Source: Pachysolen tannophilus NRRL Y-2460
Taxonomy: Eukaryota
Direction of reading: 5' to 3'
Assembly: GCA_001661245.1 (NCBI GenBank)
Contig: KV454012.1
Coordinates: 402,147 to 466,146 of the forward strand
Length of the DNA: 64,000 nt
A program made the translations under genes and the position numbers. This document shows positions 1-64,000 of the stretch, in pieces. Positions within the stretch are counted from its first letter, which is position 1; every line of letters begins with the position of its first letter. The notes beneath the pieces are model-generated. The model worked only from the letters and a program-made list of their open reading frames with translations, made no database searches and was not told where the DNA came from.

Positions 1-636
1 TCACCTCAGTTGAACAGGCCATTGTTCCAACAACCGCAAGTTAATCAACAATTCCAAGTTCCTCTCCAACAACAGCCACAGCGGCCAGGACAGTTTCCTC
101 CAGGTCCAGGTCCAGGTCAGGTTCCAGTTCATATTCAGCAACAGGCAGATCAGCGTCAAGGAGGTCCTCTTCAACAATTACCACCACATATACAGCTGCA
201 GCAACTTAATCAAAGCAAAGGCGTTAACTTTCAACAGTTTGCACCAAATGGCCAAAACCCGCTGGGTCCGTTTAATCAACAAATGCCTCCTTGGTTAATG
301 CAAGGTGCCCCAATACCACCTCTGTTCATGAATGGTGGTAGAGGCTTACCAATTCCACAACAGCAAGGTGTTCCTCCACCTGGTTTACAACTGCAAAATC
401 CACAGCAACCAGCTCTGGGTCAACAACCACAATTTTCGTCGAATGGAATGCCATCGTTCATCAATGGTCCACCTCCACCTGGTTTCAATGGAGGCCCAGG
501 TTTTGGATTCCCACCACCACCACCGATGTTGTTCCCACAACAACCACAACAACCACATCAGCCTCAACAGCAACAACAGCAACAACAGTTTACCAGGATG
601 AGTGGTCCACTTCCACAGTTTCAACAACGTAAATAA
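1..636 (+). CDS. 3' end of a gene entering the window; Q/P/G/F-rich low-complexity C-terminus, product unknown
   Basis: Frame is open from base 1 (SPQLNRPL...) to TAA at 634-636; no start codon in the window; prion-like composition. Confidence 0.8.
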   Translation, partial: SPQLNRPLFQQPQVNQQFQVPLQQQPQRPGQFPPGPGPGQVPVHIQQQADQRQGGPLQQLPPHIQLQQLNQSKGVNFQQFAPNGQNPLGPFNQQMPPWLMQGAPIPPLFMNGGRGLPIPQQQGVPPPGLQLQNPQQPALGQQPQFSSNGMPSFINGPPPPGFNGGPGFGFPPPPPMLFPQQPQQPHQPQQQQQQQQFTRMSGPLPQFQQRK

Positions 637-1155
637 AGTGCAGCTAAAGTATAGGGTTTTTCACGTACATTATGGGGTTTAAATTTTTTTTTTTTCTTTA
701 TTTTTTTTTTTTTTTTTTTTTTATACCATTTAATACGTCAATACGAAGTATAGTCTCTTTTATTTGATTTAGTTAGCGGATCAGTTGTGTTGTAACTATT
801 AAGAGTTAATTTATTCCCTAAAGCTTGTAGTTCAACATTTAGTACTTCCTAGAAAATATAAAATTCTATTGAAACTGCGTCCAATTGTGTCTGCGGCTCT
901 TTTCTTCAGATCCAAATAGGCGAAAATGAAAAACTAAAGCGATTGAAACGTTAACGGAAAATACTTATTATTACTCGATATTGAGATAAGAGACCCCCTA
1001 TTTTTCATATAAAAACTAGGATTTAAGAGTAGTTATTTCATTCATCTTAATTGTAATAGTTTTGTTCTTTCTTTTTTCTTTTTTCTTTTTTCTTTTTTTT
1101 TTTTTTTTTTTAGCTGGAAAAAAAAAACAAAGTTTATTGAGCTTCTTGAAGGAAA

Positions 1156-2226
1156 ATGTCGAAAGTTGTTGTAGTCGGTGCCGGTGTTACTGGTTTAACA
1201 ACTGCTTACTTCTTATCAGAAAAAGGTTATGATGTTACAATAGTATTTAAGAAGGCCTTTTTTGATGGATATGATGATCTGTGCTATGCTTCCAATTTTG
1301 CAGGTGCCAATTGGCATAGTTTTGCCAGTCATGATGAAATTGAATTACAAGAATATGATAAACCGGCATATAGGAAATTTTTACATTTGGCCAAGACTGA
1401 TCCAAAAGCTGGTATAATATTGAAAAAAAACGTTTCTTATATAGAGAAAGAGACTTTTGCTAAAAAGTATAACAATGACCCTTCCAAAGTTTCACATCCT
1501 TGGTTTAAAGATTTTGTTGAAGACTACAAAATTATTCCTCAGCACGAATTACCAAGTAATATTGGGTTCGGAACTTCTTATCTTGGTGTTGTTATTACCA
1601 CGCCTATTTATCTTAACTACTTGTTACTGAAATGTGTTGAAAACGGAGCTACCTATAAAAGAGCTACTCTTGAACATATTAGAGACGCTGAAAAATATCA
1701 CCATTCGGGTATTAAACCTGATGTTATTGTCAATTGTACAGGACTTTTAGCAGCTAAATTAGGTGGAGTGGAAGATAAGGAAGTGTATCCGATTAGAGGT
1801 CAAATTATTGTAGTTGAAAATGACTGCAAAGATGTCATGAGTGTAAAATTTGAAGATCCCCAAAATCCAGATGATTTGTTATATATTATGCCTAGAAAAG
1901 AAGGTGGTGCTATTATTGGTGGTTGTTTCTTAGCCGATATTTGGAATAATACTCCTGATTACGAAATGGCAAATAGAACTTTGCAAAGAGCTAAAAAATA
2001 TTGCCCAGAATTTGTTGATCCATGTAGTGGAAACCCATCTGAGTTTAAAGTTGTTAGATATCAAGTTGGATTTAGACCTGGTAGAAAAGGAGGACCAAAA
2101 GTTGAAATCGAAGGAAACATCGTTCATAATTACGGAGCTGGTGGTACTGGTTATCAATCCTCATACGGCACATGCTCCAAAGCTGTTTCTTTGGTAGAAC
2201 TGTTTTTAAGCAAACCTAAATTATAA
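1156..2226 (+). CDS. DAO1: D-amino acid oxidase / D-aspartate oxidase family flavoenzyme
   Basis: VVVGAGVTG FAD-binding motif, YASNFAGANW, PIRGQ, GFRPGR, HNYGAGGTGYQSSYG; C-terminal PKL resembles a PTS1. Confidence 0.92.
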   Translation: MSKVVVVGAGVTGLTTAYFLSEKGYDVTIVFKKAFFDGYDDLCYASNFAGANWHSFASHDEIELQEYDKPAYRKFLHLAKTDPKAGIILKKNVSYIEKETFAKKYNNDPSKVSHPWFKDFVEDYKIIPQHELPSNIGFGTSYLGVVITTPIYLNYLLLKCVENGATYKRATLEHIRDAEKYHHSGIKPDVIVNCTGLLAAKLGGVEDKEVYPIRGQIIVVENDCKDVMSVKFEDPQNPDDLLYIMPRKEGGAIIGGCFLADIWNNTPDYEMANRTLQRAKKYCPEFVDPCSGNPSEFKVVRYQVGFRPGRKGGPKVEIEGNIVHNYGAGGTGYQSSYGTCSKAVSLVELFLSKPKL

Positions 2227-2703
2227 TTTGGTAATGTTAGCCGGTTGTCGCTTAGTATCGTCCGTCGCCTATGACCAGTAATTGTGATGTAGTCAAGAGA
2301 TTGAGCCGCATGCGCGTATATATTTCCGCTTAAGTTTAGATATGCAAGTATCCGTTTGAATTTCTATTATTTAATTAGGACTGGTATTAAACCTGTTAAT
2401 CTATCTTATCTACCCTATCTATCTATTGATGTATATATGTGATATATGGAATTTGAAATTGCATGCGATGATCTAAATTCTATGTTTCAGGTAAAAGGTT
2501 TCTGTACTATGTCAAACTCGAGGAAAAGTATTAAATTCCAGTACCACTGCGAGTGTTTAAATGGAGTAGAAGACTAACTTGTTTAAAGACAAGTTATTTA
2601 TTTTATTGGGAAGAAAGATTTAATATTCGATTATTCTCAAGCCGTAAAATTTTATTCATTGGAATGATAGTCTAGATTATAGATTAAAGTATATAGGAGT
2701 GTG

Positions 2704-4646: not shown

Positions 4647-4681
<35 letters not shown>

Positions 4682-12429: not shown

Positions 12430-12463
<34 letters not shown>

Positions 12464-14444: not shown

Positions 14445-17330
14445 TTATTTGATTCCAAAACCTTCACTCTCATTAACTGCAAAATCTAGCTTATTATAAA
14501 AATCTTGTTTTAAATCATAATTGTATATACACAATTCATTAAAACATGTATGTGCTACTGGGAATCTTGATTTACTACCATTTAATAATGTTATCTTAAA
14601 ATTTAAAGATTGAATTCCTGTAGCAGGTAATCTATCACTTCCAGTGATAAATAATAATAATTTTTTTTGTTGCTTATAATTTAAAGTTTCAACATATTCC
14701 CAAAACCATAAAACTAATTTTGAATTTTCTGTTAAACCTCCTTGATATTTAGATACAACTTTTAAAATATCAACATTAAGAAATTTATCTCCAAATTTAC
14801 TATCATCACCTATAAGTATTAATTCAATTTCTTCTGCAGTAAATAATGAAAGTGCATTACCTCCAATAACTTGATCAAAACCTCTTTTAAAAGCATCCAG
14901 TTGAGTTTTAATTATTTCATCTAAATAAAATAAAAGATATTTATTTATATATTCAATTTTATTTTCAAATGTCACTTGAATTTTGGAACCATTAGGTATA
15001 AGTTCTCTTGTATGTATCAGTCCAAATATATCTCTAAAAGTAACTTCAAAATAAAGTTCTAAACTTTTTAAATCATCATTTTTATGATAATGTAATATTT
15101 TTTTCAAATTTTTACCTGCTTCAGGATATAATTCAATAAAATCATCTAATCCAACATTAGTATTCCCCAATAATTTTTTATAAAAAGCACGAGGAAATTG
15201 TAAATCTAAAATTGTAGAATTATAAATTGCTAAACCTAATACAACTCCAACCAAATAATACATTTCATCATTTTCAATTGGAGATATACTAAACCAACCT
15301 AAACATGAAGTTTCATTATATGTAAATAATCCTTTATCGGGATTAAATAATTCTTTACTCAATAATAAAAACCATTCTTTTTTTAAACCACCAGCATCAA
15401 TCCCTGGTTCATTTATAAATTCTACCCTTAATGATTTCCTTAAATCATTTGGATGTTGTTGTATACATCTTAATGAATCATTTGAAATATGTTCCCTTCT
15501 TACTCTAATTTTAAAATTAACATCAATTGGAACTTTTCTACTTATAGAACTAATAAAAGCTTCTTCTGCTTTTCTTTCCATTTGTCTCTTTGCTTCATAT
15601 TCTAAAACTGATATCTTTGCTCCTAAAGAAATTAAACAAGGATATTGACAAAATGTAAAAGTTGGTTTCATTCTTGTAGATGTAGGAGATAATGGTGATC
15701 CTATACCATATATAGATGTTGTGGAAGCACTATGAAGATAATTTATTACAGATTGTACTGAAGCATCTCCATTTTCATTGGTCTCTAAACCTTTATTATA
15801 AGCACCACAATTGAACTGCCATGCATCAAAATCTTGTTTAATACTGACATAATCAACTAATGTATTATAAAAAGTTGAACAAGGAATTTTTTGTTTACCA
15901 GTATTATAATATATGTTTGATGAAAATAAAATTGCCATAAATCTTCCTGCTGTACGAAGATGCCAATCATTACCATACCGATATAATTTTATCTTGATTT
16001 CATTATTCTGCTTTTGTTTACCATTAATAGTTGAAAAATTCCAAAGTCTATATGATGAATTTCCAGACTGTGAAGATGATGGTCTATCATCTTTAAAACC
16101 TGGATTATCATCTGCATCTGTTAAATGAGCTGAAGAGTTATAATTATTCAGTGGATTGTTTTTCAATTCTAAACTAATACATCTGTTCAATTGGAAATTT
16201 ATATACAAGTTAATTAAATTCACTTTTTCTGTAAACTCATCTGGTGTTAATCTTGAAAACCAATGACACAAATATTGTTTAGTTTTTTTATCAGAATATC
16301 CTAAAAAACCTATAACCCTTTTCAAAATTTCATAACTAACAGATTTTATTTCTTGAGAATAAGAATTATCTTTTAAAAGTAAAGATGTACGTAATGTGGG
16401 TATTTCTAATAATATTAATAACCAATATGTCTCAGCTGGTTCAGAAAATTTTGTTGGACGAAGTAATAAATCATTTGATGCACATAAAAGAGCGTAAAAT
16501 GGTCTCTTTGATGGTAATGATAATAATAACTTATAAAATTTTTTCAATTGAACTTGATCCAAACCTGATGAAGAGTATGATAATTTTGTCTCTGATTTTT
16601 GATTTCTAAATGAATAATTTAAACAATCATATGAGCTAAAAGATCTATATAAATATTCTTCTAATGGTTTAAAAATTGAATGTGATGTTGCTTGAGGGTT
16701 AAGAGATTTTTTACACTCTTCTATAGCATATTTTAACAGTGAGTATGATAAAGGAGAAGGTGATAATTCTTCAATGTTTTTAGATGATGATATTGATGAA
16801 TCATTGCTAGATTTTTTGAAAATGAAAACTGTACTGCACATTGAACATTTGACCTTGCTAATATCCAGAGGATATGTTATTAGTGTTCCACAGCAACGAC
16901 ATGCATAAACTACAGAACCTTTTCTAGAAGATGACGATGATGATTCAGAAACTGATGCAGATCTAACTATATGGTTGCCATCCTTTTCATGATTATGATT
17001 ATGATTATGACTATGACTATGGTGATGATGATGATGATGATGACTTGAAGTTGAAGTTGAAGTTGAAGTTGACGCTGATGCTGATGCTGACGCCGATGCT
17101 GTATTTGGACTTGAGCCCACATTTTCTGAAATATCCACACTCGCTCGAGAAGAACCTATAGATGGCGGCAATGCTGGTAAACTTCTTGGCTCTTCTTCAT
17201 CGGCGGTATCTTCATTCATTTTAGATTGTTTCTTGGTTAATTTTTTAAACCAACTACCTTTTCTCACAGGGAGTTGATGTTGATTAACAGGTTGAAGCAA
17301 AGAGGAGGAGTTATCTAAATGAGATGTCAT
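14445..17330 (-). CDS. HUL4: HECT E3 ubiquitin ligase
   Basis: EPGIDAGGLKKEWF, FITGSDRLP, PVAHTCFNEL with catalytic Cys; N-terminal CRCC..CSMC zinc ribbon. Confidence 0.88.
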   Translation of the reverse strand: MTSHLDNSSSLLQPVNQHQLPVRKGSWFKKLTKKQSKMNEDTADEEEPRSLPALPPSIGSSRASVDISENVGSSPNTASASASASASTSTSTSTSSHHHHHHHHSHSHNHNHNHEKDGNHIVRSASVSESSSSSSRKGSVVYACRCCGTLITYPLDISKVKCSMCSTVFIFKKSSNDSSISSSKNIEELSPSPLSYSLLKYAIEECKKSLNPQATSHSIFKPLEEYLYRSFSSYDCLNYSFRNQKSETKLSYSSSGLDQVQLKKFYKLLLSLPSKRPFYALLCASNDLLLRPTKFSEPAETYWLLILLEIPTLRTSLLLKDNSYSQEIKSVSYEILKRVIGFLGYSDKKTKQYLCHWFSRLTPDEFTEKVNLINLYINFQLNRCISLELKNNPLNNYNSSAHLTDADDNPGFKDDRPSSSQSGNSSYRLWNFSTINGKQKQNNEIKIKLYRYGNDWHLRTAGRFMAILFSSNIYYNTGKQKIPCSTFYNTLVDYVSIKQDFDAWQFNCGAYNKGLETNENGDASVQSVINYLHSASTTSIYGIGSPLSPTSTRMKPTFTFCQYPCLISLGAKISVLEYEAKRQMERKAEEAFISSISRKVPIDVNFKIRVRREHISNDSLRCIQQHPNDLRKSLRVEFINEPGIDAGGLKKEWFLLLSKELFNPDKGLFTYNETSCLGWFSISPIENDEMYYLVGVVLGLAIYNSTILDLQFPRAFYKKLLGNTNVGLDDFIELYPEAGKNLKKILHYHKNDDLKSLELYFEVTFRDIFGLIHTRELIPNGSKIQVTFENKIEYINKYLLFYLDEIIKTQLDAFKRGFDQVIGGNALSLFTAEEIELILIGDDSKFGDKFLNVDILKVVSKYQGGLTENSKLVLWFWEYVETLNYKQQKKLLLFITGSDRLPATGIQSLNFKITLLNGSKSRFPVAHTCFNELCIYNYDLKQDFYNKLDFAVNESEGFGIK

Positions 17331-21186: not shown

Positions 21187-22263
21187 TCATTTTCTTTCAT
21201 CATTTGGTTTAAAGAGCCACCATGCAATACTTGTACCAAACAATCCTCCTAATACATATTTATCCCTTGCTTCAACGTCTGTTTTGCTGGGTGTGAACTT
21301 TTCTTGAGTATTTGAAGTATCTTCGGTACTTTTCTTTTCATGTTTAAAATAATTGAAAAAATTATAAGAATTTGAAACTTCACCTACTTTAGCATCAGCA
21401 ACAGAAACAGCACCAGTCAAGTCAGCTATATCAACTTCACCATCCTTAAGTTTTCTTGGTTCTCCTTTTTCCAAGACTGGGTTTTTCTTTAATAAAATAG
21501 GAGCACTAACTGGAGGCTCTACTTCTGGTTCATACGCTTGAGGAAATTTATAAAAATCAATAGTGGATGAATCACCTTTTGTATTTGTTACAGAAGAAGT
21601 TGAAAAAGATGTTTTTTGAGCCTTAGTGATAATTCTTTTGGAAATATCGGTATCCTTTTCATTAATTGAAGTTTTTTCTTTTTTTTCTAACAATAATTTA
21701 GATTTAACATTATTAGTACTATCTCTTAAAGTAGATAGTTTTTTAGAATCATTTTGTTTAACAACTTCCATTTTAGTTGATTTCGGTTTCAATTTTGGTA
21801 AAACACTTTTAATAGATGTTGTATTATGAGTTGTTGACATATTTCTTGAGTTCAATGAATCACCAACTAAATTTGCATCATTGTTAATTAATCTTTGAAC
21901 TAATTCTGATTTTTTACCACTTACTTTAACTCCTCTTCTTTTACATTCAGTTTTTAACAGTTGTAAACTCATCAACCCATATTTATTATTATTATTATTC
22001 AACAACGTGTTTTGATTCTTGGAAGTTTGATGAACACTTCTTGTAAAATTCAAATTTGCAGATTTAATGTTAGCATTTTCATATGAATTATTAGCAACAT
22101 AAGAAGAATAAACATTTGTTTGCAGATGAGTTTTATTAAAAGTAGAGTAATGGCTAATATTGTTGGCAGCTGATTTCGGTAAAGCCGGGGCCATTTCTTT
22201 CTTGAAAGAATGCTGGAAAGCTGTTCTCAAAGATGGCAATGATTTAACTGTTCTCAATGACAT
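21187..22263 (-). CDS. AIM34: Mitochondrial SAP-domain protein with C-terminal TM segment
   Basis: SAP motif MSLQxLKTECKRRGVKVSGKKSELVQRL; RDKYVLGGLFGTSIAWW tail; adjacent to MIX17 as in S. cerevisiae. Confidence 0.8.
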   Translation of the reverse strand: MSLRTVKSLPSLRTAFQHSFKKEMAPALPKSAANNISHYSTFNKTHLQTNVYSSYVANNSYENANIKSANLNFTRSVHQTSKNQNTLLNNNNNKYGLMSLQLLKTECKRRGVKVSGKKSELVQRLINNDANLVGDSLNSRNMSTTHNTTSIKSVLPKLKPKSTKMEVVKQNDSKKLSTLRDSTNNVKSKLLLEKKEKTSINEKDTDISKRIITKAQKTSFSTSSVTNTKGDSSTIDFYKFPQAYEPEVEPPVSAPILLKKNPVLEKGEPRKLKDGEVDIADLTGAVSVADAKVGEVSNSYNFFNYFKHEKKSTEDTSNTQEKFTPSKTDVEARDKYVLGGLFGTSIAWWLFKPNDERK

Positions 22264-23119: not shown

Positions 23120-23596
23120 CTAGTATTGTCTTGCAGCCTCTTGACAGGCTTTTAACTGTTGCAAGTAGTATTCACAAACTTGGAAGTTACCATCGTTATC
23201 ATCCAAGCATCTTGTGAAATTTCTAGCATCAACATCACAAGCTTTAACTTGTTCTGATTGAGTAGCTTGGTTGGCACCTGATTGATAATTAACTGGCAGA
23301 GCATCTTGTTGTTCAACTGGAGCTGCTGACGAACCACCAAACATTGAAGTAATTCCTGCACCAAGAGTATGACCAATTGTGGAACCAACAGCAACACCAG
23401 CAGCTGTTGAGGCCATTTGGGCAAACATTCCTGGTTGTCTTTGTTGACCAGCTACTGGAGGAGCTGGTGCATGTTGTGCTGGTTGTTGAGGATGCAGTTG
23501 AACAGGAGCAGCTGAAGTATGTGCTGATCTTGTTTGAGCTGGAGCTCTTGCTGGCGCTCTGGCTGGAGCTGGACGACGACCTGATGAACGTGGCAT
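23120..23596 (-). CDS. MIX17: Mitochondrial intermembrane space twin-CX9C protein (CHCHD2/10 family)
   Basis: PGMFAQMASTAAGVAVGSTIGH; CX9C-CX9C C-terminus. Confidence 0.95.
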   Translation of the reverse strand: MPRSSGRRPAPARAPARAPAQTRSAHTSAAPVQLHPQQPAQHAPAPPVAGQQRQPGMFAQMASTAAGVAVGSTIGHTLGAGITSMFGGSSAAPVEQQDALPVNYQSGANQATQSEQVKACDVDARNFTRCLDDNDGNFQVCEYYLQQLKACQEAARQY

Positions 23597-39000: not shown

Positions 39001-42000
39001 ACCATGACTTTCTTTACGAAATAGGGAAGAAACAACCAAAGAATTTGAGCTATTCAACTCTTATACCTCTAAACTTACACTTGAACTGTAGTAGAATATT
39101 GCTACAGTTAAGAGATTATCCGCTTGCGTTATTACATCTTCCGAATGATGACACTAATTCTTCGAAATCCATTGATATAAATGGAGATATAATAATAGGT
39201 GAACTCTTCTATGCTCCAGAAGAACTAAGATTAGTTTATGTTCCTTTTGTGAAAAAAATAAAGCTTCCAGTTGATTCTGTTTTTTCTTTGAACGTTCCAA
39301 GAACTTTGACATCAATCAAGTTTTATACAAATTTAAGAATCACCGTCAGTTCTTCAAATTCTAGTCAAATAGCATGGTGTAAATCTTTCCAACCTGGTAT
39401 ATCTTATGCTATGTCACGTTTTGACGTATTAACAAAACCTCCAATTGATAGATCCCCAAAAATCGGATTTTGGGACAAATTCAGACTTAATTTTCATGGA
39501 AAATTCGATTTCAACTTCAAAAAAGATTTAGTATTGTTTATCAAAGGTTCATCAAGTCCATATAACCTTATTGAAAAGGGAGCTGGATTTGCTTTTTGTT
39601 GGGACAATGAAGTCAATTTAAGAATTAATCACTATGATAGTCCTGATAAATTTATGGTTATCACCTCGAAGAGATTCAAAATTGCAATTCCAAATTTTTC
39701 TTCAGTTCAAAAGCAAAATTGGAAAGCTTATAGAGACCGAATTTACAATTTGAAGGAGGATGATGGCAATATGGGTAACACCAATATAGATTATCTAAAA
39801 GTTTTGATGAAACTAAGGGATGAAAAAATTGTTTGGAAATTAGGTATGCTTTTTGAGCGCGATGCGAACAATGACAGGTATGCCACACCTGGTAGAAGTG
39901 CTAGAACTAGTAGCTTTAAACCTCACTATGAAGTTCTGTTGAGAAATCCTGTTTATGTTAAAGATGGAGAATATTATGATTCATATAAAGGTTTTAGATC
40001 AGATTATGTCCACATGGCTGTTAGTGTTGATTCATCAGGTCCTTCAAGCTATAACTCTGTTCATTTGTCACCAATGTCATTTGCGCATTTTTTTCCTTGG
40101 TGGTCGTTATTCGGTAATAGTATTTCTGTACCAGCTAAAACAGGAAAGCTTTTTGAGAATAAATTATTAGACTCAAGACGCTCTATAAAGTTTGGTGCTC
40201 ATTTATTCAGTATGAAATATCAATTGAAACTAAAACATTTATTTATTGGTCATTTATACAGTCATTCAAGTTCAGAAGAATTGAAAAAGCATAATAAGTT
40301 GGCATTTACTGGCTTAAAGGCACAGTTCAGTAATTTCAGTATGGATTTGCATCAGCGAAAACAACAAACTAGATACGTTAATACCGAACTTAATGTTTGT
40401 AAAAGTATTTGGAAAATGAAGATGAATCAAGGAGAGCTTGACTTCGAAAATGCAGATATCAGATTAATATCCGCTTTATTTAATGATAATTCGATTGAAA
40501 GTTATTTAGCTGAAAACTTAGGAATTGATACTTCCGCTTCGTCTTCAGAAAATGTATCAACTGCTGCTGCATCAAGTAATTTTCAAAATATGTCGTCTTG
40601 CCCTACTATGGAGTCAGGGTCATGGATTGATTTTGATGATTATGTGGAACTAGAATCGCCTCCAATAAAATCGAGATTTCCAAAAGTAAAATTGTTGGAA
40701 CTAGTGTCCTCGCCAAGGTTTTCCTACTTTAAGCAGCTGGATGCTGATAACGCACATGATGATAATCCTCTACCCTACCCTTTTGGTGATGAACCTTCTC
40801 ATGAGTGTTTGATTGGTGAAAATCATCCAGAGAGAACGCAAGAAGTTTTACTTGAGAATAGGGCAAAAATCATCGAAGACCAAATTACCACGAATGAAGT
40901 ATCTATACATGCTTTACTGAGTGATCCAACGATGGCTCAAGAGCCTTTGGCTGAAGGTAAAGCTAAACAGTTGGAGAACGAAATCCATATTTTGAAACAC
41001 AAGTTGCACATTGTACGTAGGGTTTTAACTGATATTTCAATATCAGGTAAAGCTGATGAGCAAAGCATTTATGAAGAAGATACTGCGGAATCTGAAATTT
41101 TTAGGTCTCGCTCCAATTTCTCGATGGATTCACGTAGTTATTCAATTGCTCCATCAATGAGCAATAGTAACATGCCTGTAATCAAAACCTTAACGAGCCG
41201 TGCTTCCTTCAGAGAAATGAAAGAGGCATCTTCACCTAATGCAATTTCAACTTTCAACAATAGGTTCGTTATTCATAACATGAAATTGAAATGGAATAAT
41301 AGTATTAGAAATATACTATTTCAGTACATTCAAAAAGTTAGTGATAGAAGATCACTAGTTTTTTTCATGGGAAGAAAAGCTGTTAATTTTGCAGAAAATT
41401 TGATTAGTCAAACACTTTCCAAAGGTAATGATGAAAAGCTACAGTTCGATGAATTTAAATATGAGTTTGAATCTCCATCTGATACAATAAGTAACTTCGA
41501 TCATGACTTGAGATTTCTTCAGTCAGAGAATGAAGAGACCGTAGATCATTATTTGTTCAAACTAGTTGCTCCGCAAATTCAGTTAGTTAGTGATGAAGCT
41601 CCAGATTCTTGCTTGCTAATAACTTGCCGTGATGTTACAATGAAGGTTATCTCTGTAAGTTCGAATAGAGAAAGCGAAGCTTTTATAACTGAAAGTGAGG
41701 AGGTTTCAAGGCTATTAGAAACAAGACATGGGGTTTTATTGAATAACGCACAATTTTATGTTTTGGATAAAGAAAAGATTCTGAATAATAGTTACGGGAT
41801 TTTTAGCACTGACTCCGAGCAGTGGCCACCATGGCTAGCCGTTGAGGTATGTTATGACCCTCTTTCTCTTGAAAATGCATTAGTTATTGAAAGAACCACT
41901 CTTGGATTCATTTACACAAAGCCCAATTCATTATATATGTCTAATGAGATACTGAAATCTGGGAAAAAAGATGAAGTTTTGAATTTTAAGACTTTGCATA

Positions 42001-43799
42001 GGTTTAGCCAAATCAAAGTTTTCTTTCCAAAAATTGCAATATCTTCTACTTCCCATCAATATGATGTCATATACAATATTGCTACCGACTTATTGATATA
42101 TAGCGATATAGAGAAAAAGAATGTTACTGACAGACTAGAAAATTTGGTTGCAGTTTCTGATATTCGTGATTACGAAGGTTTTGATAAAAAAATTGAGGAT
42201 ATTCAGAAGAAAATTATTTTACTTAGAAAGACGAAATTGTTATTAAAATTATATGAGAATGATTTGACAAAGGAAGAAAAAGAGAATGTTCTTTCCATTG
42301 ATATCGAAATAAGAAGGCTATCTTTGGAGTTAACATTAATTATGAAGGTTTTACAAAAAACTGCATCATTTAGAAAAACAGATCTTCTTGACACGATACA
42401 ATGGATATTAGCTGCAGATCAGATTATATGGCATTTTCTCGATGACAACAGAAATCAATTCGTGGATTTTGCTATAGCTGAATCGTATTTTACAAGAGTA
42501 CAGTCTCCAGTTGGTGCAAATTCTAATAAGATTGTTATTTCAAGAATTCAAGGATTTGATCTTCAACCGCGTTCAAGATATCCTGATATTTTGGTTCCAT
42601 TCATTGATGGTAATAAAACCAAGAAAAAATTCAATGAGTCTTACCCAATGATAGAAATTGAATGGACGTTACTTAAACCTGTCGGGGGAATTAAAGTCAT
42701 TGATCACGCTGAGCTTAAGATTCAACCATTGAAGATTCAAATTGATCACTCTACAGCTACTAAAATTTTCAATTTTCTTTATCCCTCTGATGGTAACAAT
42801 AAACACGAGGATATGAATGACAGTCCAGTAGAGATTTTATTTGACAGTGATAGCGAACCTGACCAAGTTGAAAATTCATCATACCAAATTTATGATCATT
42901 CCTCAGAGAGCAGTAGAAAATCAAGTATTGATGAAGTTGTTAGGCCACTGGGCATTGTGAGCTCTATTCCTTCGCATCAGTCGAAAAATACACATAGGGC
43001 AAAGCATTTATCTGCAATTTTTTCAAAAAGATCTTCAAATCTGTCTTTGAGAAGAGAAGTTTTAACATCAAGTATTAAGAAAAATGATGCTAATAGATCT
43101 GATAACGAAAAGGAAATGATGCAACGTGCTTCAAAATATAGCTGTATCAATAGAATTTCAATTCCTAGTATTCTTTTGTGCGTTAGTTTCAAAGGAACTG
43201 GATATTTGAGCATAGTCGACGTTGAAGAGTTGATTGTTAATCTTCCTGATCTCAATTACGTTAATAAGCTATGGACTTCCGAAGAATTTGCATTGAAGTT
43301 GAAAAAGGATATTTTAAAATCAATTCTTCGTAACACTGGACAAATTCTTGGAAATAAATTTAAGTCTCATAAAAAGAAGAACAGGTTTTCGGATCCTATG
43401 AAACAAATTACAAACTACAAATCATTTCTTAGTATCGAAGATTTGAAACTTAATGGTCGCGAGTCCGGTAATGATCAACAAACTGGAAACCAAGATAATA
43501 GTGATGAGAACAACCAAAAAAATCATGAATCTCACATCCATCATCACCATCACAATCACGCTCACGGACACCAACATGTAGTGGATCCAGAATTGGCTGA
43601 ACCAACTAGAAGCATTAGGAACAACTACAATTTCAAGAAAGCTGTCGGACCACCTAGTGAAAAAGAAGCTCCTCAGGTGGAACCTTACTTTCTGGATTTA
43701 CAGGCAGAAGCAGATAATGGTTTCCACAGCATATCAAATCCCCCACTGGACGTACTTTCTTCTATCAAAGAATCTAATGAAAGTATGTCAAGTTCCTAA
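36027..43799 (+). CDS. FMP27: Bridge-like lipid transfer protein (Fmp27/Hobbit, BLTP2)
   Basis: N-terminal TM segment; DDPFEAEL, FSESWI, LRDYPL, KIGFWDK, WPPW and EMMQRASKY motifs; 2590 aa. Confidence 0.92.
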   Translation: MIVRFLHLLVYLKWYIFSLLLILIVFHSYIINKFIKPFRIGSIFIIGWLVLVITNVGYNNDRKGRKVSIGSIKVLLFSKSEILFTFKDFNYDDNNHVHVNISSITFGLSLSIFNNITKLRNIRKPENLLSVILQLSNSSIISATNTKIINNETSLCYSVKNFKILFKNSEGNFKSKEFMLSLTAFKIEDLQTACNIIYFPFANHTNYIKVEEIFQLLTKKEKQFKNLSSCLSQTLITINSPLIQLSSKNIEALSKKQLNNSSSVSSLKNDDNNSDKLKNILTYLGLLKLKLFVLDTQLEINTKEDVKFKFRLNEMLLDITNSDSLNIILSSFLRFKLLEGYLMLPDEKSIKCFSLNKSHSTFSVSDLNQVNHEIYVDNCSIQLNDYVILKNIRKVMELISLLKQKTAKTTNGNMHIDNKIFILNKIPEYFETFDINITNFKIISCFKNIFPPLEGIDGIDLSSVNRGIEFKLSSFRLKYNKTSKRLLKFLFENLSLLLINESKKPFISIDLFKGYLDDSQKILETKLYQLDGFISLEVVWNLLFIFKLMETAIPRPKYDNTKIVYNGNDAIDSNPDNNLKWLFLLDSATIKLFLPNNYRLLLELDKLMLSNVKDSGLNNFRIFVVHPFVEGAWVRLITVKSTKIINKPKDTDDEFTPLYLIDTDGLRLTIPFEFMFYKIVDNLVSFIKATKQIRSNFSNLSELLVKNANIDWKINKIFPHKIIHPLAMPKLKINSKCFIFEMDDDPFEAELSLIFQTGQLEQKERILKLENFMEKEEKMLEDLNSKYPSLDAKYKKSYDDYVGFSDEIARNPARKNFDDDNFRRGPIRGVKTSPTFNVSRSRSRSSSPLSHDIIPPNRSSTGFPFQHIHHHQPSSLNIVGDYKDETAEEQEIRSYNEDLTKLRFKLLVARKRLYRNFSESWINRYNAFKASRVNSVISKNEVFFGETDEIPKRVLDKYDIVERPNNPALFSVIFKDLNVILDKPHTFELENYHDFLYEIGKKQPKNLSYSTLIPLNLHLNCSRILLQLRDYPLALLHLPNDDTNSSKSIDINGDIIIGELFYAPEELRLVYVPFVKKIKLPVDSVFSLNVPRTLTSIKFYTNLRITVSSSNSSQIAWCKSFQPGISYAMSRFDVLTKPPIDRSPKIGFWDKFRLNFHGKFDFNFKKDLVLFIKGSSSPYNLIEKGAGFAFCWDNEVNLRINHYDSPDKFMVITSKRFKIAIPNFSSVQKQNWKAYRDRIYNLKEDDGNMGNTNIDYLKVLMKLRDEKIVWKLGMLFERDANNDRYATPGRSARTSSFKPHYEVLLRNPVYVKDGEYYDSYKGFRSDYVHMAVSVDSSGPSSYNSVHLSPMSFAHFFPWWSLFGNSISVPAKTGKLFENKLLDSRRSIKFGAHLFSMKYQLKLKHLFIGHLYSHSSSEELKKHNKLAFTGLKAQFSNFSMDLHQRKQQTRYVNTELNVCKSIWKMKMNQGELDFENADIRLISALFNDNSIESYLAENLGIDTSASSSENVSTAAASSNFQNMSSCPTMESGSWIDFDDYVELESPPIKSRFPKVKLLELVSSPRFSYFKQLDADNAHDDNPLPYPFGDEPSHECLIGENHPERTQEVLLENRAKIIEDQITTNEVSIHALLSDPTMAQEPLAEGKAKQLENEIHILKHKLHIVRRVLTDISISGKADEQSIYEEDTAESEIFRSRSNFSMDSRSYSIAPSMSNSNMPVIKTLTSRASFREMKEASSPNAISTFNNRFVIHNMKLKWNNSIRNILFQYIQKVSDRRSLVFFMGRKAVNFAENLISQTLSKGNDEKLQFDEFKYEFESPSDTISNFDHDLRFLQSENEETVDHYLFKLVAPQIQLVSDEAPDSCLLITCRDVTMKVISVSSNRESEAFITESEEVSRLLETRHGVLLNNAQFYVLDKEKILNNSYGIFSTDSEQWPPWLAVEVCYDPLSLENALVIERTTLGFIYTKPNSLYMSNEILKSGKKDEVLNFKTLHRFSQIKVFFPKIAISSTSHQYDVIYNIATDLLIYSDIEKKNVTDRLENLVAVSDIRDYEGFDKKIEDIQKKIILLRKTKLLLKLYENDLTKEEKENVLSIDIEIRRLSLELTLIMKVLQKTASFRKTDLLDTIQWILAADQIIWHFLDDNRNQFVDFAIAESYFTRVQSPVGANSNKIVISRIQGFDLQPRSRYPDILVPFIDGNKTKKKFNESYPMIEIEWTLLKPVGGIKVIDHAELKIQPLKIQIDHSTATKIFNFLYPSDGNNKHEDMNDSPVEILFDSDSEPDQVENSSYQIYDHSSESSRKSSIDEVVRPLGIVSSIPSHQSKNTHRAKHLSAIFSKRSSNLSLRREVLTSSIKKNDANRSDNEKEMMQRASKYSCINRISIPSILLCVSFKGTGYLSIVDVEELIVNLPDLNYVNKLWTSEEFALKLKKDILKSILRNTGQILGNKFKSHKKKNRFSDPMKQITNYKSFLSIEDLKLNGRESGNDQQTGNQDNSDENNQKNHESHIHHHHHNHAHGHQHVVDPELAEPTRSIRNNYNFKKAVGPPSEKEAPQVEPYFLDLQAEADNGFHSISNPPLDVLSSIKESNESMSSS

Positions 43800-47561: not shown

Positions 47562-49238
47562 ATGTCTGATGATGAATCGCTTTATCGAACATCACTTGAA
47601 TTAGCCAATGTAATTTCCAAGACTTACTTCAAACAAAGTAAAGATAATAATTCAAAGGTGAAAACAAAGAAATCTTCACAGAAATTATCGGAATCAGAGT
47701 TATCTAAATTATTTTATTCATCACTTTCTTCAAAGAAACTAGTTAGTAACCAACCATGGAAAGAAGACGTTAATTATTTTGAGACAGCATACATTTCCTC
47801 CTTGGCGTTGTTGAAAATGACAATGCATGCAAGGTCTGGTGGATCTATTGAAATCATGGGGATGATGACTGGTAAAATTTTTGAAAACTCGATAGTAGTG
47901 ATGGATTGCTATCCATTACCTGTAGAAGGAACAGAAACTAGAGTTAATGCACAATCGGAAGGTTATGAATTTATGGTTCAATACCTTGATAATTTGAAAA
48001 AATTGAATAGATTTGAAAATATTGTCGGATGGTATCATTCTCACCCTGGGTATGGGTGCTGGTTGAGTGGAATTGATGTCGCTACACAATCTTTGAATCA
48101 ACAGTTTCAGGATCCATATTTAGCAGTGGTCATAGATCCGGAAAGAACTATGCTGAATAAAAGAGTTGAGATTGGTGCTTTTAGAACATATCCTGAAAAT
48201 AGCAATAACAACGCTAATAATGATAATGATAAAAATAATAATCGTAGTGGTGATAATGGTGGCATCAATCCAAAAGTAGCGAGACGTGGGAGTGTTCCTT
48301 TATCAAAATTGAATGATTTCGGTGTACATCACGATAGGTATTACTCCTTAGATGTTAAGTTTTTCAAATCTGATATTGATTCTAAATTTATGAGTAACTT
48401 ATACGATAATAAATATTGGTCATCCGAATTATTGAACAAAGAAACTAATGAAATGTACGAGAAAGAAGTGGAAGCAATTTTAGATATCTCGCTGAAATTG
48501 GATAATTATAAGATTCCAAAAATGAATAATGGCAACAACAATACTAATGAAAATATAGATGATAAAACTGTCTTGAACAGTAATCGTGATATTTTAGCTG
48601 TTTCTGAAAGAAATTCATATTCATTAGGAAGTCCAAGCTCTACTGGGAGAAAATTAATAACTGGTTCTCATGGAGAGACAACTCCCGAGATGACTCAAAA
48701 TCAGATTTCAGTAGAGCATAAAGGAAAACACAAAAATGTTAAAAAAATTTCAAACATACTGTGGTCACTATTATCTTCCAACAACGCCCGTAATACTGAA
48801 TCTTTAGGTTTAAACTCTGCTGAAATAACGGAAAGTGATAATGATAGTGATCAGATTATGATTGATGAAAACTCCGATGAAAAAGAAGATATAGACAGCA
48901 GTGACATTGAAATTGCAGAGGAAGGTCATAAATCCAAATCACCAGCTTCTCGACATGAAATTGTTGGGAAAAGCAATTTAGAAACTCCAGGGGATATTGT
49001 GAGTGGGGATAAAAGTGCTGCTATGAGAAAGAAAATATTGAAACAAGATCCAATAAAGAAAAAAATCAGTAATAACAGTAAACTTAGAAATGAAGTACTG
49101 TCACTTCAAGAATTATTTGATACTGTCAAACCACCAACAGTTGAAAATATAGTTAAGGAATCTTGTAAATTACTTTCCGAGAATTTGAATAAGTTGATGC
49201 TTTTACAAATGCAACAAGATCTATTTTCAGATGACTAA
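47562..49238 (+). CDS. RRI1: COP9 signalosome catalytic subunit 5 (JAMM)
   Basis: ALLKMTMHARSGGSIEIMG, LPVEGTETRVNA, GWYHSHPGYGCWLSGID. Confidence 0.93.
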   Translation: MSDDESLYRTSLELANVISKTYFKQSKDNNSKVKTKKSSQKLSESELSKLFYSSLSSKKLVSNQPWKEDVNYFETAYISSLALLKMTMHARSGGSIEIMGMMTGKIFENSIVVMDCYPLPVEGTETRVNAQSEGYEFMVQYLDNLKKLNRFENIVGWYHSHPGYGCWLSGIDVATQSLNQQFQDPYLAVVIDPERTMLNKRVEIGAFRTYPENSNNNANNDNDKNNNRSGDNGGINPKVARRGSVPLSKLNDFGVHHDRYYSLDVKFFKSDIDSKFMSNLYDNKYWSSELLNKETNEMYEKEVEAILDISLKLDNYKIPKMNNGNNNTNENIDDKTVLNSNRDILAVSERNSYSLGSPSSTGRKLITGSHGETTPEMTQNQISVEHKGKHKNVKKISNILWSLLSSNNARNTESLGLNSAEITESDNDSDQIMIDENSDEKEDIDSSDIEIAEEGHKSKSPASRHEIVGKSNLETPGDIVSGDKSAAMRKKILKQDPIKKKISNNSKLRNEVLSLQELFDTVKPPTVENIVKESCKLLSENLNKLMLLQMQQDLFSDD

Positions 49239-56682: not shown

Positions 56683-56707
56683 TTTTTTTTTTTTTTTTGA
56701 TTTTTCA

Positions 56708-59692
56708 TTATCTTTGTTTATACTTGTTTTTCTCTAACATGGCAATATGAGCGACAGATTGATCCACTTGAGTATGCTCATGATCATCACATTTCACAAC
56801 ATTACCATCAACGACATCACACATAGAAACTGTTTTTAACCAAGGGTCATTTAAACATTCTTCTATCGTAATACGACAAGCTGGAGCCAACTCTACCATT
56901 TTTCCAATAACTGGTCTGCAAAATTCAGGTAATGCATTCAACAATCTCTTGGCTCCCCTTAATTGAGATGTATGTGATTTCCCTTCTTTATCTACTACAG
57001 TTGATGATTCTTTAGGTTCAGATTGTTTCCCATCATCTCCACCTTCAGGTTTTGGTAGGTCTGCAGACAAATCTTGCGTTATTGTATTCAAAGGAGTAGG
57101 ATAAGATTCACCTTCATTAATAACCTCGCTATAACCCGGAGGAGAAGGAGTTCTTTTCAATAATTCGTGTAAAGTAACATGTTCACCTCGACTGGCAAAC
57201 AGTTTAAAATTTTGATCTGCTAATTTTGGGACTTTCCAAGGAAATTTCTTCAACATCATACAACAATACATCAATGCAACCGACCATACATCAACAGGAC
57301 GAGGGTCATACTTGTTGAATACACAAACTTCAGGTGCCAAGTAAGGATCTGAACCAACAATGCCTTGAGCTTCAATTAAAGTATTGGTAAATGGATAATT
57401 AAAAACCACTGCAGAACCAAAATCTATAATTTTAACAATCCCATCTTTGTTGACAACACAGTTGTCTAATTTCAAATCTCTATGAGCTAAACCCATTGAG
57501 TGAAGATAGTTAACACCAGTTAATATCTGTTTAAAACAACAGTCAATTTCGTTTTGACTCATTTTATTAGACATCACAATTGCAAATAAATCATAATCAC
57601 AATATTCCATTACTTGTAATACTCTATCATTTTCATATGAAATTTCAATTGTTTCTATAATATTAGGATGCTTCAAAGTGGAACCAATACAATATTCCCC
57701 AGTAATTTTTTTGGTGTATTCTCTCTTTGTTTCATGATTATATTTTGGTCTAAATTCTTTAACAGCAAATATCTTTTTATCACTTAATCTCTTGACCAAT
57801 TTCACAGAACCTCCAGCACCAGCTCCCAAATTTTCACCAAATTTACTGTATCTTTTAGAGAAAGGAATTTGTGGAGTAGTGTTACCTCCAATTGACATGC
57901 TGAATGTCTGACTTGTAACAGACCCATAACTTGTTGAAACAGTTGGATTGCTTGTATAGGTGTTTCTTCTTGAAGAATTAGCAGACGAAGGTGGTACTAC
58001 ACCATTAATATTCAAATTTGAATTTAAAGTTGCTCCACTTTGAATTGGTGAAATACTTTTCATTCTTTGTGAAAGCTGACTTGTTCTAGCAGGAGATGAA
58101 GAATAATTTGTGCTTCTTTTAAAAAATCTTTTCAAATCTGCCATTGATGAATGTCTTGTGTTCGAAGCATATATGGAATGACCAGATTCCACCGATGAAG
58201 ATGATGAAGGGCTATGTGGGGAATCATAACTGCTTCCACCAACAATTCCAGGTATATTATTCAGCGGCGAAAAAGAATGTGTATAAGCCGCTGTTGGTGA
58301 TGTTAATTCAGGGTTTACAATCACTGAAGATTTCCGTGATCTACTGAAAAATCCAGAAACACTAGAATGAGACAGTGATCTGTTTAATGATCCGTGACTT
58401 CCAGTACTACCAGAACCATTGTTTAATAAATTTTTTTCTTTTTCCTTTTCCAGTGCATTTGCAGCATATACTTGTGCAATTTTTTGCTTTGATATGACAA
58501 ATCTTGGATCAATTGACGAAGAATTTGTTATAGTTGGTGAGGATATATGGATACTCTGGATTGGTGCACCATTTGCCAAGTTTGGTAAATAAGCGCTACT
58601 ATTTGAATTATTCAAATTTGCAAGATTACCAGTACTACTGCTATTGTTGTTCCCATTTGCATTAAGAGTTGATCCCGAGCTGCTAATATTGCTGTTATTG
58701 CTAATGCTATGGTGATGACTGTGATGGCTGCCAGTACCAGTTCCAGGTCCAGCACCAGCACCAGGTCCAGCACCAGCACCAGGTCCAGCACCAGCACCAG
58801 GTCCGCTGCCAGTACCAGTGCTAGAACCACCACCATTGGTGCCCGCGTTGGCTAATGCAAAAGAAGATCCATTTGAAGAATATGCATTTCTTCCCCCAGG
58901 AGCAGAATAGGGAATTGAAGAAGACAACGACCTGCTATAATTGAAATCATGCACTGATGTTGATGACTGTTGGCGAGCAAACCTCGGCGATACTGGCGGC
59001 CTAACCAGAGGAACCATCTCTGCACTGTTACCGTTACTGTTAACATTACCATTACTATTACTGTTATGGTTATCGTTATCGTTAATGTTGAGGTTAAGGT
59101 TAAGGTTAAGGTTATCGTTATCGCTATCGTTATTGATAATATTATTTTTCGAATTTGCAATCGGAATAACACGGGTATGTTGGGGTATTGATCGATCATT
59201 AGTAGTAATACGAGTATGTTCATGATCATTACCAACCACCAATGGTAACGGTGATGGAGTATTGCGGACAATAACAGTTGAAGGATGTTCATTAGTTGCT
59301 GTTGTAGAATTGCTTATATTGCTTTCATCAGAAGGAGATACACCTTCAATTGAAACCGTTGTAGCTATCACTCCATGAGAATCTGTACCTCTACCAGCAC
59401 CACTACTTCCACTACTACCAGTAGTACCAGTATTACCTATATTGGCCATATTTAAAGTAAGATTAGATGGCTTAACATTTGTATTATTCAGATCAGTATT
59501 TTTCATCAATCTCGTCAATGACGATATTGGTGATTTTGAAGTTTCCCGCTGAACAATTTGAGCAGTTTCGTTCCGCTCATGTTCTTCTTGTCTTAACTGC
59601 AGCTGCAGCTGCAGTTGTTGTTGTTGTTGTTGTTGTTGTAACCAATCCCCAGTACCATCATCATTTGTGTTTCCTCTCGTTTCTTTACTCAT
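56708..59692 (-). CDS. NPR1: Nitrogen permease reactivator Ser/Thr kinase
   Basis: LGAGAGGSVKL, FAVKEFR, HRDLKLDN, DFG, GSDPYLAPE; SIPYS and PRFVISKQK N-terminal motifs; neighbours MRPL19 and IPI3. Confidence 0.9.
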   Translation of the reverse strand: MSKETRGNTNDDGTGDWLQQQQQQQQLQLQLQLRQEEHERNETAQIVQRETSKSPISSLTRLMKNTDLNNTNVKPSNLTLNMANIGNTGTTGSSGSSGAGRGTDSHGVIATTVSIEGVSPSDESNISNSTTATNEHPSTVIVRNTPSPLPLVVGNDHEHTRITTNDRSIPQHTRVIPIANSKNNIINNDSDNDNLNLNLNLNINDNDNHNSNSNGNVNSNGNSAEMVPLVRPPVSPRFARQQSSTSVHDFNYSRSLSSSIPYSAPGGRNAYSSNGSSFALANAGTNGGGSSTGTGSGPGAGAGPGAGAGPGAGAGPGTGTGSHHSHHHSISNNSNISSSGSTLNANGNNNSSSTGNLANLNNSNSSAYLPNLANGAPIQSIHISSPTITNSSSIDPRFVISKQKIAQVYAANALEKEKEKNLLNNGSGSTGSHGSLNRSLSHSSVSGFFSRSRKSSVIVNPELTSPTAAYTHSFSPLNNIPGIVGGSSYDSPHSPSSSSSVESGHSIYASNTRHSSMADLKRFFKRSTNYSSSPARTSQLSQRMKSISPIQSGATLNSNLNINGVVPPSSANSSRRNTYTSNPTVSTSYGSVTSQTFSMSIGGNTTPQIPFSKRYSKFGENLGAGAGGSVKLVKRLSDKKIFAVKEFRPKYNHETKREYTKKITGEYCIGSTLKHPNIIETIEISYENDRVLQVMEYCDYDLFAIVMSNKMSQNEIDCCFKQILTGVNYLHSMGLAHRDLKLDNCVVNKDGIVKIIDFGSAVVFNYPFTNTLIEAQGIVGSDPYLAPEVCVFNKYDPRPVDVWSVALMYCCMMLKKFPWKVPKLADQNFKLFASRGEHVTLHELLKRTPSPPGYSEVINEGESYPTPLNTITQDLSADLPKPEGGDDGKQSEPKESSTVVDKEGKSHTSQLRGAKRLLNALPEFCRPVIGKMVELAPACRITIEECLNDPWLKTVSMCDVVDGNVVKCDDHEHTQVDQSVAHIAMLEKNKYKQR
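58744..58805. repeat. 18-bp coding minisatellite encoding (GPGAGA)x3 in NPR1
   Basis: CCAGGTCCAGCACCAGCA x3 plus a partial unit. Confidence 0.9.
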
Positions 59693-61659: not shown

Positions 61660-61669
61660 AAAATTTTCA
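61660..61669 (-). promoter_or_regulatory. RRPE-like element upstream of IPI3
   Basis: AAAATTTTCA (TGAAAATTTT on the minus strand) about 90 nt before a ribosome-biogenesis gene; the AT-rich background weakens it. Confidence 0.45.
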
Positions 61670-61760
61670 TTTTATATTAGTTGAACAAGTCATTGGTCTT
61701 ATTTCATTCAAGTTTGAATCGATATTGGTGTTATAGTTTGGTGCTATAGTTTGAGCTATA

Positions 61761-63233: not shown

Positions 63234-63323
63234 GCGGTGCAAAAAAATAAATACATTCATTCATTTTAAAAAATTGTGTAAAATCTTAATTCTTCTATTG
63301 TACATTATAGTTTTCTCACTTGT

Positions 63324-63806
63324 CTATACACTTTTCTTTCTCTTAGAAGGAGGTGACAATGGTCTATTAAACCCATTTTTCCTGTTCATGTATTGTCTAT
63401 ATTCAGCTTTTTTATTCTTAACAGAACCATAAACGTTTGTACCTTCAACTTTCTTATTTTTTGTAGTTCCAAACCCATTAAACCCCATTAAACTCAGCAT
63501 ATCATGTATCGATGGATCTTCCTGTATTGAAATATCATCTCCATCACTATCATTATACTCCTGTCTTTTTGATGTTCTTCCTCTAGACTCTTCTTCCACC
63601 TCTTGTTTCCCCTCAATAATTTCTTGTTCGTGCTTGTCATCTACCCCATCATCATCATCATTTTCTTCTTCATCTGCTTCTTTCTTTCTATCCAGCAACA
63701 GCGGTGACCTTTCTCTAAAACTACTTCTTCCCTTGTCACCTTCTCCATCCACACTCCTCTCTCTCTTCCTGTCTTTCAAGTTAATCTGTATCTTCTTCGG
63801 ACCCAT
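63324..63806 (-). CDS. SNRNP27: U4/U6.U5 tri-snRNP 27-kDa protein (DUF1777)
   Basis: MGFNGFGTTKNKKV...YRQYMNRKNGFNRPLSP; short RS/RE-like N-terminus. Confidence 0.9.
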   Translation of the reverse strand: MGPKKIQINLKDRKRERSVDGEGDKGRSSFRERSPLLLDRKKEADEEENDDDDGVDDKHEQEIIEGKQEVEEESRGRTSKRQEYNDSDGDDISIQEDPSIHDMLSLMGFNGFGTTKNKKVEGTNVYGSVKNKKAEYRQYMNRKNGFNRPLSPPSKRKKSV

Positions 63807-64000
63807 TTCTGTTTAATTGTAATCATTTCTAAAAAATGTTAAAATCTTTAAAATAAATATTTTTAATTATGTGTTTAAAAATTTCTTTATCTTTTTACAT
63901 TAAAAAAAATTTTTTTTAAAAAATTTTCATTTTATCAAATTATAAAGAAATAAATTATAATTATCATTGTTTAGATCAAAGGTGATAACGTACTAGTGAA

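What the first reader, a model, noticed from the sequence alone, without database searches (positions are those of the whole stretch)
1..64000. Non-standard genetic code: CTG appears to encode alanine
Seen: in-frame CTG falls where Ala fits and Leu fits poorly. Examples: AIM34 SAP MSLQ[CTG]LKTEC (21958-60, minus); CPA2 DDAL[CTG]AATKVGYP (31097-99); MIX17 QQDA[CTG]PV (23297-99, minus); NDUFS2 PSRA[CTG]MKE (25411-13); RRI1 RTM[CTG]NKRVEIG (48153-55, a small-residue column in CSN5); NPR1 polyQ-[CTG]Q[CTG]Q[CTG]Q (59600-14, giving a QA repeat). Established: CUG=Ala (table 26) is used by Pachysolen tannophilus and relatives. Counter-examples where Leu looks as good or better: HUL4 TQ[CTG]DAF (14898-900) and GPA2 TL[CTG]KAL. 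The homologue columns are from memory.
Basis: partly seen in the sequence, partly recalled or inferred. Interest (0 to 1): 0.7.

Follow-up and report, generated by a model that had tools for sequence, protein, structure and literature searches.

The report
Known yeast code: CTG means alanine

Summary
Right conclusion, already published. All cited CTG codons are in frame (76 CTG in 20 of 27 ORFs). The window's FMP27 protein is 100% identical over 98% of its length to a protein NCBI names as Pachysolen tannophilus. This is the species in which CUG=Ala was shown by mass spectrometry (PMC4937558). The genome holds a tRNA with anticodon CAG on an alanine body: G3:U70, A73, no long variable arm, closest to tRNA-Ala(UGC). 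No second CAG tRNA was found. Alignments reject Leu (Ala beats Leu at 36 of 46 Pfam sites, p 7e-5) but do not separate Ala from Ser (19:18). CTG sits in variable columns: Ala is the commonest homologue residue at 6 of 39 CTG sites against 203 of 347 GCN sites. The NDUFS2 example has Leu in its nearest homologues. So Ala rests on the tRNA and the published proteomics, not on the columns. The scan had already reported this code on at least eight other pieces of the same genome.

The parts
1..64000 (.). Nuclear yeast DNA (30% G+C) with 27 accepted ORFs, 15,389 codons, 76 in-frame CTG in 20 ORFs. The decoding tRNA(CAG) gene lies outside the window, at G000:C6:217831-217902 minus (L031 1489-1560).
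   Evidence: tRNA; no tRNA gene in the window
21958..21960 (-).
   Evidence: Pfam SAP 44.4 Ala, 42.9 Ser, 39.8 Leu
31097..31099 (+). CTG at CPA2 residue 228, variable column with Ala commonest
   Evidence: Ala 24, Lys 18, Glu 18, Leu 6 of 112; Lys in mammalian CPS1, Ala in E. coli CarB chains; Pfam 120.6 Ala, 119.9 Ser, 118.4 Leu
25411..25413 (+). CTG at NDUFS2 residue 398; nearest homologues have Leu
   Evidence: 5 of 5 alignments shown; Pfam 213.9 Ala, 214.1 Ser, 212.7 Leu
48153..48155 (+). CTG at RRI1/CSN5 residue 198; Ser in the CSN5 chains shown
   Evidence: 5 of 5 alignments shown, near-identical chains
23297..23299 (-). CTG in a low-complexity linker of the CHCH protein (MIX17 label); not tested by homology
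59600..59614 (-). Three CTG alternating with CAG after a Gln run in the kinase ORF (NPR1 label); reads as a Gln-Ala repeat under table 26; not tested by homology
14898..14900 (-). CTG in the HECT domain (HUL4 label); Leu scores better
   Evidence: Pfam 100.4 Leu, 98.9 Ala, 98.5 Ser
34843..34845 (+). CTG in the G-alpha protein (GPA2 label); Leu scores better
   Evidence: Pfam 100.5 Leu, 99.0 Ala, 98.3 Ser
36027..43799 (+). FMP27/Hobbit ORF with 16 CTG; its table-26 translation identifies the species
   Evidence: 100% identity over 98% to P0001, named P. tannophilus PACTADRAFT_15236; P0001 has Ala at all 15 of these sites that it covers (circular, the record was translated with this code)

Best explanation
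The window is nuclear DNA of Pachysolen tannophilus, which reads CUG as alanine (table 26). Shown here: the genome has a 72-nt tRNA gene with anticodon CAG built on an alanine-tRNA body (5' G1-G2-G3-C4, G3:U70 pair, discriminator A73, short variable loop, G37). From established knowledge: alanyl-tRNA synthetase recognises the G3:U70 acceptor stem and ignores the anticodon, so it charges this tRNA with Ala, while leucyl- and seryl-tRNA synthetases need the long variable arm that it lacks. Published: LC-MS/MS shows Ala at CUG. Inferred: because CTG is two or more base changes from every GCN codon, CTG codons arise from Leu, Gln, Pro, Val, Met or Arg codons and survive mainly where the site is tolerant, which is why they do not mark conserved Ala columns and why some still sit in Leu columns.
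For: Species: FMP27 100%, dynein 100%, midasin 99% when read with table 1 to proteins named P. tannophilus. tRNA: one match genome-wide, none for the reversed control pattern; cloverleaf with g+t third pair; best global alignment among the other 26 distinct nuclear tRNA predictions held is tRNA-Ala(UGC), 51 of 72 bases identical; Leu and Ser tRNAs here are 82-86 nt; the gene stands without a differing letter in contigs of 3 of 4 runs laid, from two studies (one may be the source). These features are those described for the Pachysolen tRNA. Not Leu: 36 of 46 Pfam sites; mean Leu share of homologue columns 0.08 at 43 CTG sites against 0.44-0.62 for the five other Leu codons; Ala ranks first of 20 residues, Leu 15th. 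PMC4937558: 97.2% of 907 fully supported CUG positions are Ala.
Against: My alignments do not single out Ala: Ala vs Ser 19:18 in Pfam; summed column score Ala -5.9, Ser -8.7, Gln -13.0 bits; Ala is top in only 868 of 2000 bootstraps (Ser 394, Gln 359, Leu 1); mean Ala share 0.10 against 0.43-0.47 for GCN codons. A neighbour-context classifier ranked Gln first and Ala 12th for 829 CTG, while it ranked Ala first for all four GCN codons (44 of 58 control codons correct). NDUFS2, HUL4 and GPA2 sites favour Leu. No proteomics or charging assay was run here.
Confidence: 0.97

Rival explanations
1. CUG is read as serine (table 12), as in the Candida clade.
For: Ser beats Leu at 35 of 46 Pfam sites and ties with Ala; Ser is second in the column score; PMC4986446 assigned the Ser code to Pachysolen from alignments alone in 2014.
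Against: The only CAG tRNA found has Ala identity elements and no long variable arm; Ser is the commonest residue at only 4 of 39 CTG columns against 341 of 715 for Ser codons; differences of 1 bit or more favour Ala 6:1; the 2016 proteomics overturned the Ser assignment.
Confidence: 0.01
2. Mixed decoding: mostly Ala, with some Leu from wobble reading by a Leu tRNA or mischarging, which would let CTG persist at Leu columns.
For: Leu is the commonest residue at 5 of 39 CTG columns; NDUFS2 398 is Leu in nearest homologues; the tRNA has the Leu-type anticodon and G37; my tRNA searches were partial and did not find the tRNA-Leu(UAG) that PMC4937558 describes.
Against: PMC4937558 found CUG as unambiguous as AUG (8 positions with mixed and 18 with other residues); 5 of 39 (13%) is near the 11% background share of Leu.
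Confidence: 0.015
3. Standard code; CTG is a rare Leu codon used at poorly conserved sites.
For: Nine of 46 Pfam sites score better as Leu.
Against: The equally rare CTC (43 sites) and CTA (89 sites) rank Leu first with Leu shares of 0.44 and 0.58, CTG 0.08; no Leu-type tRNA(CAG) found; published proteomics.
Confidence: 0.005

Closest known systems
CUG-Ala nuclear code of Pachysolen tannophilus (NCBI table 26; PMC4937558)
   Same: Same species by protein identity; same tRNA features (G1GGC4, G3:U70, A73, G37, no extended variable loop); CTG at about 5-6 per 1000 codons.
   Different: No difference found. The paper says the CUG codons lie mainly at conserved alanine positions; in my sample only 1 of 43 CTG columns has an Ala majority. 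The tRNA could not be compared letter by letter because figures are not held.
Order Alaninales / CUG-Ala clade: Nakazawaea, Peterozyma (PMC11182611, PMC5951914, PMC6041473)
   Same: CUG read as Ala through a tRNA-Ala(CAG) with G3:U70 and A73.
   Different: In N. peltata CUG is 27.5% of Ala codons and lies at highly conserved Ala positions, and its tRNA(CAG) is described as probably of separate origin; here CTG is about 11% of Ala codons (350 against 2803 GCN) and lies in variable columns.
CUG-Ser1 (Candida, table 12) and CUG-Ser2 (Ascoidea, Saccharomycopsis) clades
   Same: Same codon captured by a tRNA whose synthetase ignores the anticodon.
   Different: Captured by tRNA-Ser with a long variable arm; Ser2 species keep a tRNA-Leu(CAG) and A. 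asiatica decodes both ways; neither seen here.

Membership tests
CUG-Ala code (table 26, Alaninales) | CUG translated as alanine in the proteome | not testable with these tools
   Published for this species: 97.2% of 907 supported positions (PMC4937558)
CUG-Ala code (table 26, Alaninales) | Organism belongs to Pachysolen, Nakazawaea or Peterozyma | tested here: met
   Three proteins 99-100% identical to records named P. tannophilus
CUG-Ala code (table 26, Alaninales) | tRNA(CAG) with Ala identity elements G1GGC4, G3:U70, A73 | tested here: met
CUG-Ala code (table 26, Alaninales) | tRNA(CAG) lacks the extended variable arm of Leu/Ser tRNAs and resembles tRNA-Ala | tested here: met
   72 nt against 82-86 nt; best alignment to tRNA-Ala(UGC), 51 of 72 identical
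CUG-Ala code (table 26, Alaninales) | No competing tRNA-Leu(CAG) or tRNA-Ser(CAG) | tested here: inconclusive
   Three patterns gave 0, 4 and 2 matches; only the Ala-type gene has a CAG anticodon. Not a full scan: the Rfam search scored 63 of 1003 candidates and only 30 of those loci were typed
CUG-Ala code (table 26, Alaninales) | CTG not at Leu columns while CTT, CTC, CTA stay Leu | tested here: met
CUG-Ala code (table 26, Alaninales) | CTG at conserved Ala columns | tested here: inconclusive
   Ala ranks first but narrowly; 1 of 43 columns with Ala majority; Ala commonest at 6 of 39
CUG-Ala code (table 26, Alaninales) | Order-specific protein family OG0016373 (PMC11182611) | not tested
   Named; no sequence in hand
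CUG-Ser code (table 12) | tRNA-Ser(CAG) with long variable arm | tested here: not met
   None found; the CAG tRNA is Ala-type
CUG-Ser code (table 12) | CTG at conserved Ser columns | tested here: not met
   Ser commonest at 4 of 39 CTG columns against 341 of 715 Ser-codon columns

The most novel reading that the evidence does not exclude
In P. tannophilus CTG is not an ordinary fifth alanine codon but a mutational island: it cannot be reached from GCN in one step, so it feeds alanine into former Gln, Pro, Leu, Val and Met sites and into CAG-derived repeats, giving this yeast a class of amino-acid substitutions that standard-code organisms rarely make. Support: Ala commonest at 6 of 39 CTG columns against 203 of 347 GCN columns (p 2e-7); share of one-step residues (P, Q, R, M, V, L) in non-Ala columns 0.34 for CTG against 0.25 for GCN (p 0.009), though 0.34 is near the overall background of 0.32 and the count-based version is only borderline (6 of 10 against 17 of 60, p 0.07); CTG is enriched beside CTG (9x), Gln (2.1x) and Pro (1.6x). 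This goes against the statement in PMC4937558 that the codons lie mainly at conserved alanine positions; four proteins only.
Probability: 0.5. Interest if true: 0.3.

Novelty: already known. Interest (0 to 1): 0.08.

Why it matters
Practical only: 76 residues in 20 of the 27 ORFs of this window are mistranslated by the standard code, and foreign genes with CTG would be misread in this xylose-fermenting yeast. As a discovery it adds nothing: the code is published, has a translation table and defines an order. A side lesson for code-detection screens: in this species alignments alone reject Leu but cannot tell Ala from Ser, which is how it was first misassigned in 2014.

Tried and rejected
1) Whole-protein Pfam scores under three codes: Leu mostly worst, Ala and Ser level; the Hobbit score moved by 25-30 bits with a shift of the alignment and was set aside. 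2) FMP27 columns: only 6 of 16 CTG sites had five or more well-aligned homologues; Ala share 0.01, Ser 0.16, Thr 0.18, Leu 0.08; uninformative and no support for Ala. 3) Neighbour-context classifier on 256 ORFs: Gln first, Ala 12th; restricted to complex sequence Ala 18th, but there only 1 of 10 control codons came out right; rejected as a decoder because it reports where CTG arises (CAG/CCG repeats), and reported as a result against the reading. 4) Internal repeats of a proline-rich ORF (L033:577-3030): CTG keeps its own slot and does not swap with GCN; no information. 5) Ala at CTG sites in NCBI record P0001 is circular. 6) G-alpha searches of solved structures returned nothing at the strict thresholds set, so the GPA2 site rests on Pfam only. 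7) Sequencing runs for the tRNA locus: no RNA holder listed; run X4 gave no contig. 8) One paper search for a mitochondrial tRNA-Leu(AAG) in Pachysolen listed only animal mitogenome papers; not a test of novelty.

Full report
Verdict. The window is nuclear DNA of Pachysolen tannophilus, the species in which CUG=Ala was found. My own alignments exclude Leu but do not prove Ala; Ala rests on the tRNA found here and on published proteomics.

Observation. All seven cited positions are in-frame CTG codons. In 27 accepted ORFs (15,389 codons) there are 76 CTG in 20 ORFs. The window is G000:C2:402147-466146 of a 12.6 Mb genome and holds no tRNA gene.

Species. The FMP27 ORF read with table 26 is 100% identical over 98% of its length to P0001, which NCBI names as a P. 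tannophilus protein; the next hit is 38%. Dynein and midasin from other contigs match P. tannophilus records at 100% and 99%. That P0001 carries Ala at all 18 CTG sites it covers only shows which code its annotators used.

The decoding tRNA. A pattern for an alanine-type 5' end with a CAG anticodon gave one match in the genome and none for the reversed control: G000:C6:217831-217902, minus strand. ARAGORN folds it as a 72-nt cloverleaf and labels it Leu from the anticodon alone. It begins G1-G2-G3-C4, has the G3:U70 pair, discriminator A73, G37 and a short variable loop. Among the other 26 distinct nuclear tRNA predictions in my loci its best global alignment is to tRNA-Ala(UGC) (score 24, 51 of 72 identical; tRNA-Gln 22; tRNA-Leu(CAA) 16), and the Leu and Ser tRNAs are 82-86 nt. 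These are the features that PMC4937558 describes. Three further patterns for any CAG tRNA gave 0, 4 and 2 matches, of which only this gene has a CAG anticodon. This is not a complete scan: the Rfam search scored 63 of 1003 candidates, 30 loci were typed, and I did not find the tRNA-Leu(UAG) that the paper reports. Contigs of 3 of 4 runs laid cover the gene without a differing letter; one may be the source of the assembly.

Column tests. (a) Pfam, site by site. Of 64 CTG sites inside domains in the window and 200 kb of flanks, 14 were left out before scoring (segments too short, or in inserts and at domain edges), 50 were scored under tables 1, 26 and 12 and 4 gave no score under at least one code. 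On 46 sites Ala beat Leu 36:9 (p 7e-5, +45.5 bits), Ser beat Leu 35:11, and Ala against Ser was 19:18 with 9 ties (+8.9 bits, Wilcoxon p 0.19; 6:1 among differences of 1 bit or more). (b) Homologue columns. Dynein (32 of 119 homologues kept after thinning), midasin (94 of 119), CPA2 (150) and FMP27 (30) hold 64 CTG sites, 43 with ten or more well-aligned homologues. Ala ranks first of 20 residues (-5.9 bits), Ser second (-8.7), Leu 15th (-44.0); Ala is top in 868 of 2000 bootstraps, Leu in 1. All 19 control codons ranked their own residue first, including the rare CTC and CTA as Leu. Mean Leu share is 0.08 at CTG against 0.44-0.62 at the other Leu codons; mean Ala share is 0.10 against 0.43-0.47 at GCN. 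Unnamed homologues from yeasts with altered codes may be mistranslated, which would tilt columns slightly towards Leu. (c) A neighbour-context classifier on 829 CTG in 256 ORFs ranked Gln first and Ala 12th; this is against the reading at face value, and I take it to reflect where CTG arises.

SAP site: good support for Ala. CPA2 228: variable, Ala commonest (24 of 112). NDUFS2 398: Leu in the five best solved homologues shown, so not an example for Ala. RRI1 198: Ser in the CSN5 chains shown. MIX17 and the NPR1 repeat: untested.

How it works. Shown: tRNA anatomy, species, non-Leu behaviour of CTG, Leu behaviour of CTT, CTC and CTA. Established knowledge, as stated in PMC4937558: G3:U70 and A73 are the alanine identity elements and the anticodon is not, so an anticodon-mutated tRNA-Ala is charged with Ala; lack of the long variable arm should prevent charging with Leu. 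Published: Ala at 97.2% of 907 fully supported CUG positions. Inferred: CTG is at least two changes from any GCN codon, so CTG codons come from CTN, TTG, CAG, CCG, GTG, ATG or CGG and persist at tolerant sites. This fits Ala being commonest at only 6 of 39 CTG columns against 203 of 347 GCN columns, 25% of CTG in low-complexity context against 11% overall, and conserved Pro, Gln, Met and Val columns under CTG in dynein and midasin. The enrichment for one-step residues is significant against GCN sites (p 0.009) but close to overall background, and borderline by counts (p 0.05-0.19).

Comparison with what is known. It is the type example of NCBI table 26 (table name recalled) and of the order Alaninales, whose diagnosis includes CUG=Ala. 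The clade also holds Nakazawaea and Peterozyma. PMC4986446 had assigned Ser to Pachysolen from alignments alone, the same ambiguity that I met. Papers seen: PMC4937558 parts 1-3 of 6 (abstract, results, part of discussion); PMC5951914 parts 1-2 of 5; passages only of PMC6041473, PMC4986446, PMC9154068, PMC11182611 and PMC8629427 (one passage, not used); Riley et al. 2016 not seen, only cited in these. No figures or supplements were seen. I make no claim that the mutational-island point is absent from print: the searches were not aimed at it closely. Earlier notes of this scan report the same code on other pieces of this genome (8 shown of 110 that fit); they are not independent support.

Scores. 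Already known; interest 0.08; confidence in CUG=Ala 0.97.

Noticed in passing
G000:C10 (28,450 bases; L052-L054); tRNA at L054 5987-6059 = L010 1791-1863: Mitochondrial contig. The only CUN-reading tRNA among 24 found has anticodon AAG, 73 nt and no long variable arm. CUN codons are rare and nearly all CTT; all 6 CTT in cox1 exon 1 align with Leu in the 3 homologues shown. PMC9154068 lists P. tannophilus under mitochondrial table 3, where CUN is Thr; these columns fit table 4 instead. Three tRNAs have anticodon CAT.
   Followed up: partly
L054 6349-8276 and L052 9146-9890: The nad5-like and cox2-like frames (labels from my reading of the translations) are each split into two ORFs in this assembly; possibly base errors, not checked against reads.
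   Followed up: no
window 34327-43799: NCBI model P0001 (2976 aa) joins the first 437 residues of the G-alpha ORF to the last 2538 of FMP27; in the window each ORF has its own stop or start, 368 bases apart. Probably a fused gene model.
   Followed up: partly
L050 4907-7297 minus; L033 577-3030 plus: A TPR protein with 24 CTG, including a run of eight after a GCT codon, and a proline-rich repeat protein with 29 CTG; CTG behaves as a slippage-prone repeat codon.
   Followed up: partly
window 56309-56682 and 23078: A 374-base run of N and a single N; the apparent ORF 56004-56708 across the gap was not counted.
   Followed up: no
window 27037-30042: Hydantoinase/oxoprolinase protein fused to S-Me-THD-like domains, 1001 aa.
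   Followed up: no
window 18113-20401 minus: 762-aa ORF with 6 CTG and no Pfam match at E 0.001.
   Followed up: no
G000:C4:217031-217759: A strong PI3/PI4-kinase-family match lies in an open frame of only 524 aa, shorter than the other seven (835-3923 aa); intron, frameshift or assembly break not examined.
   Followed up: no
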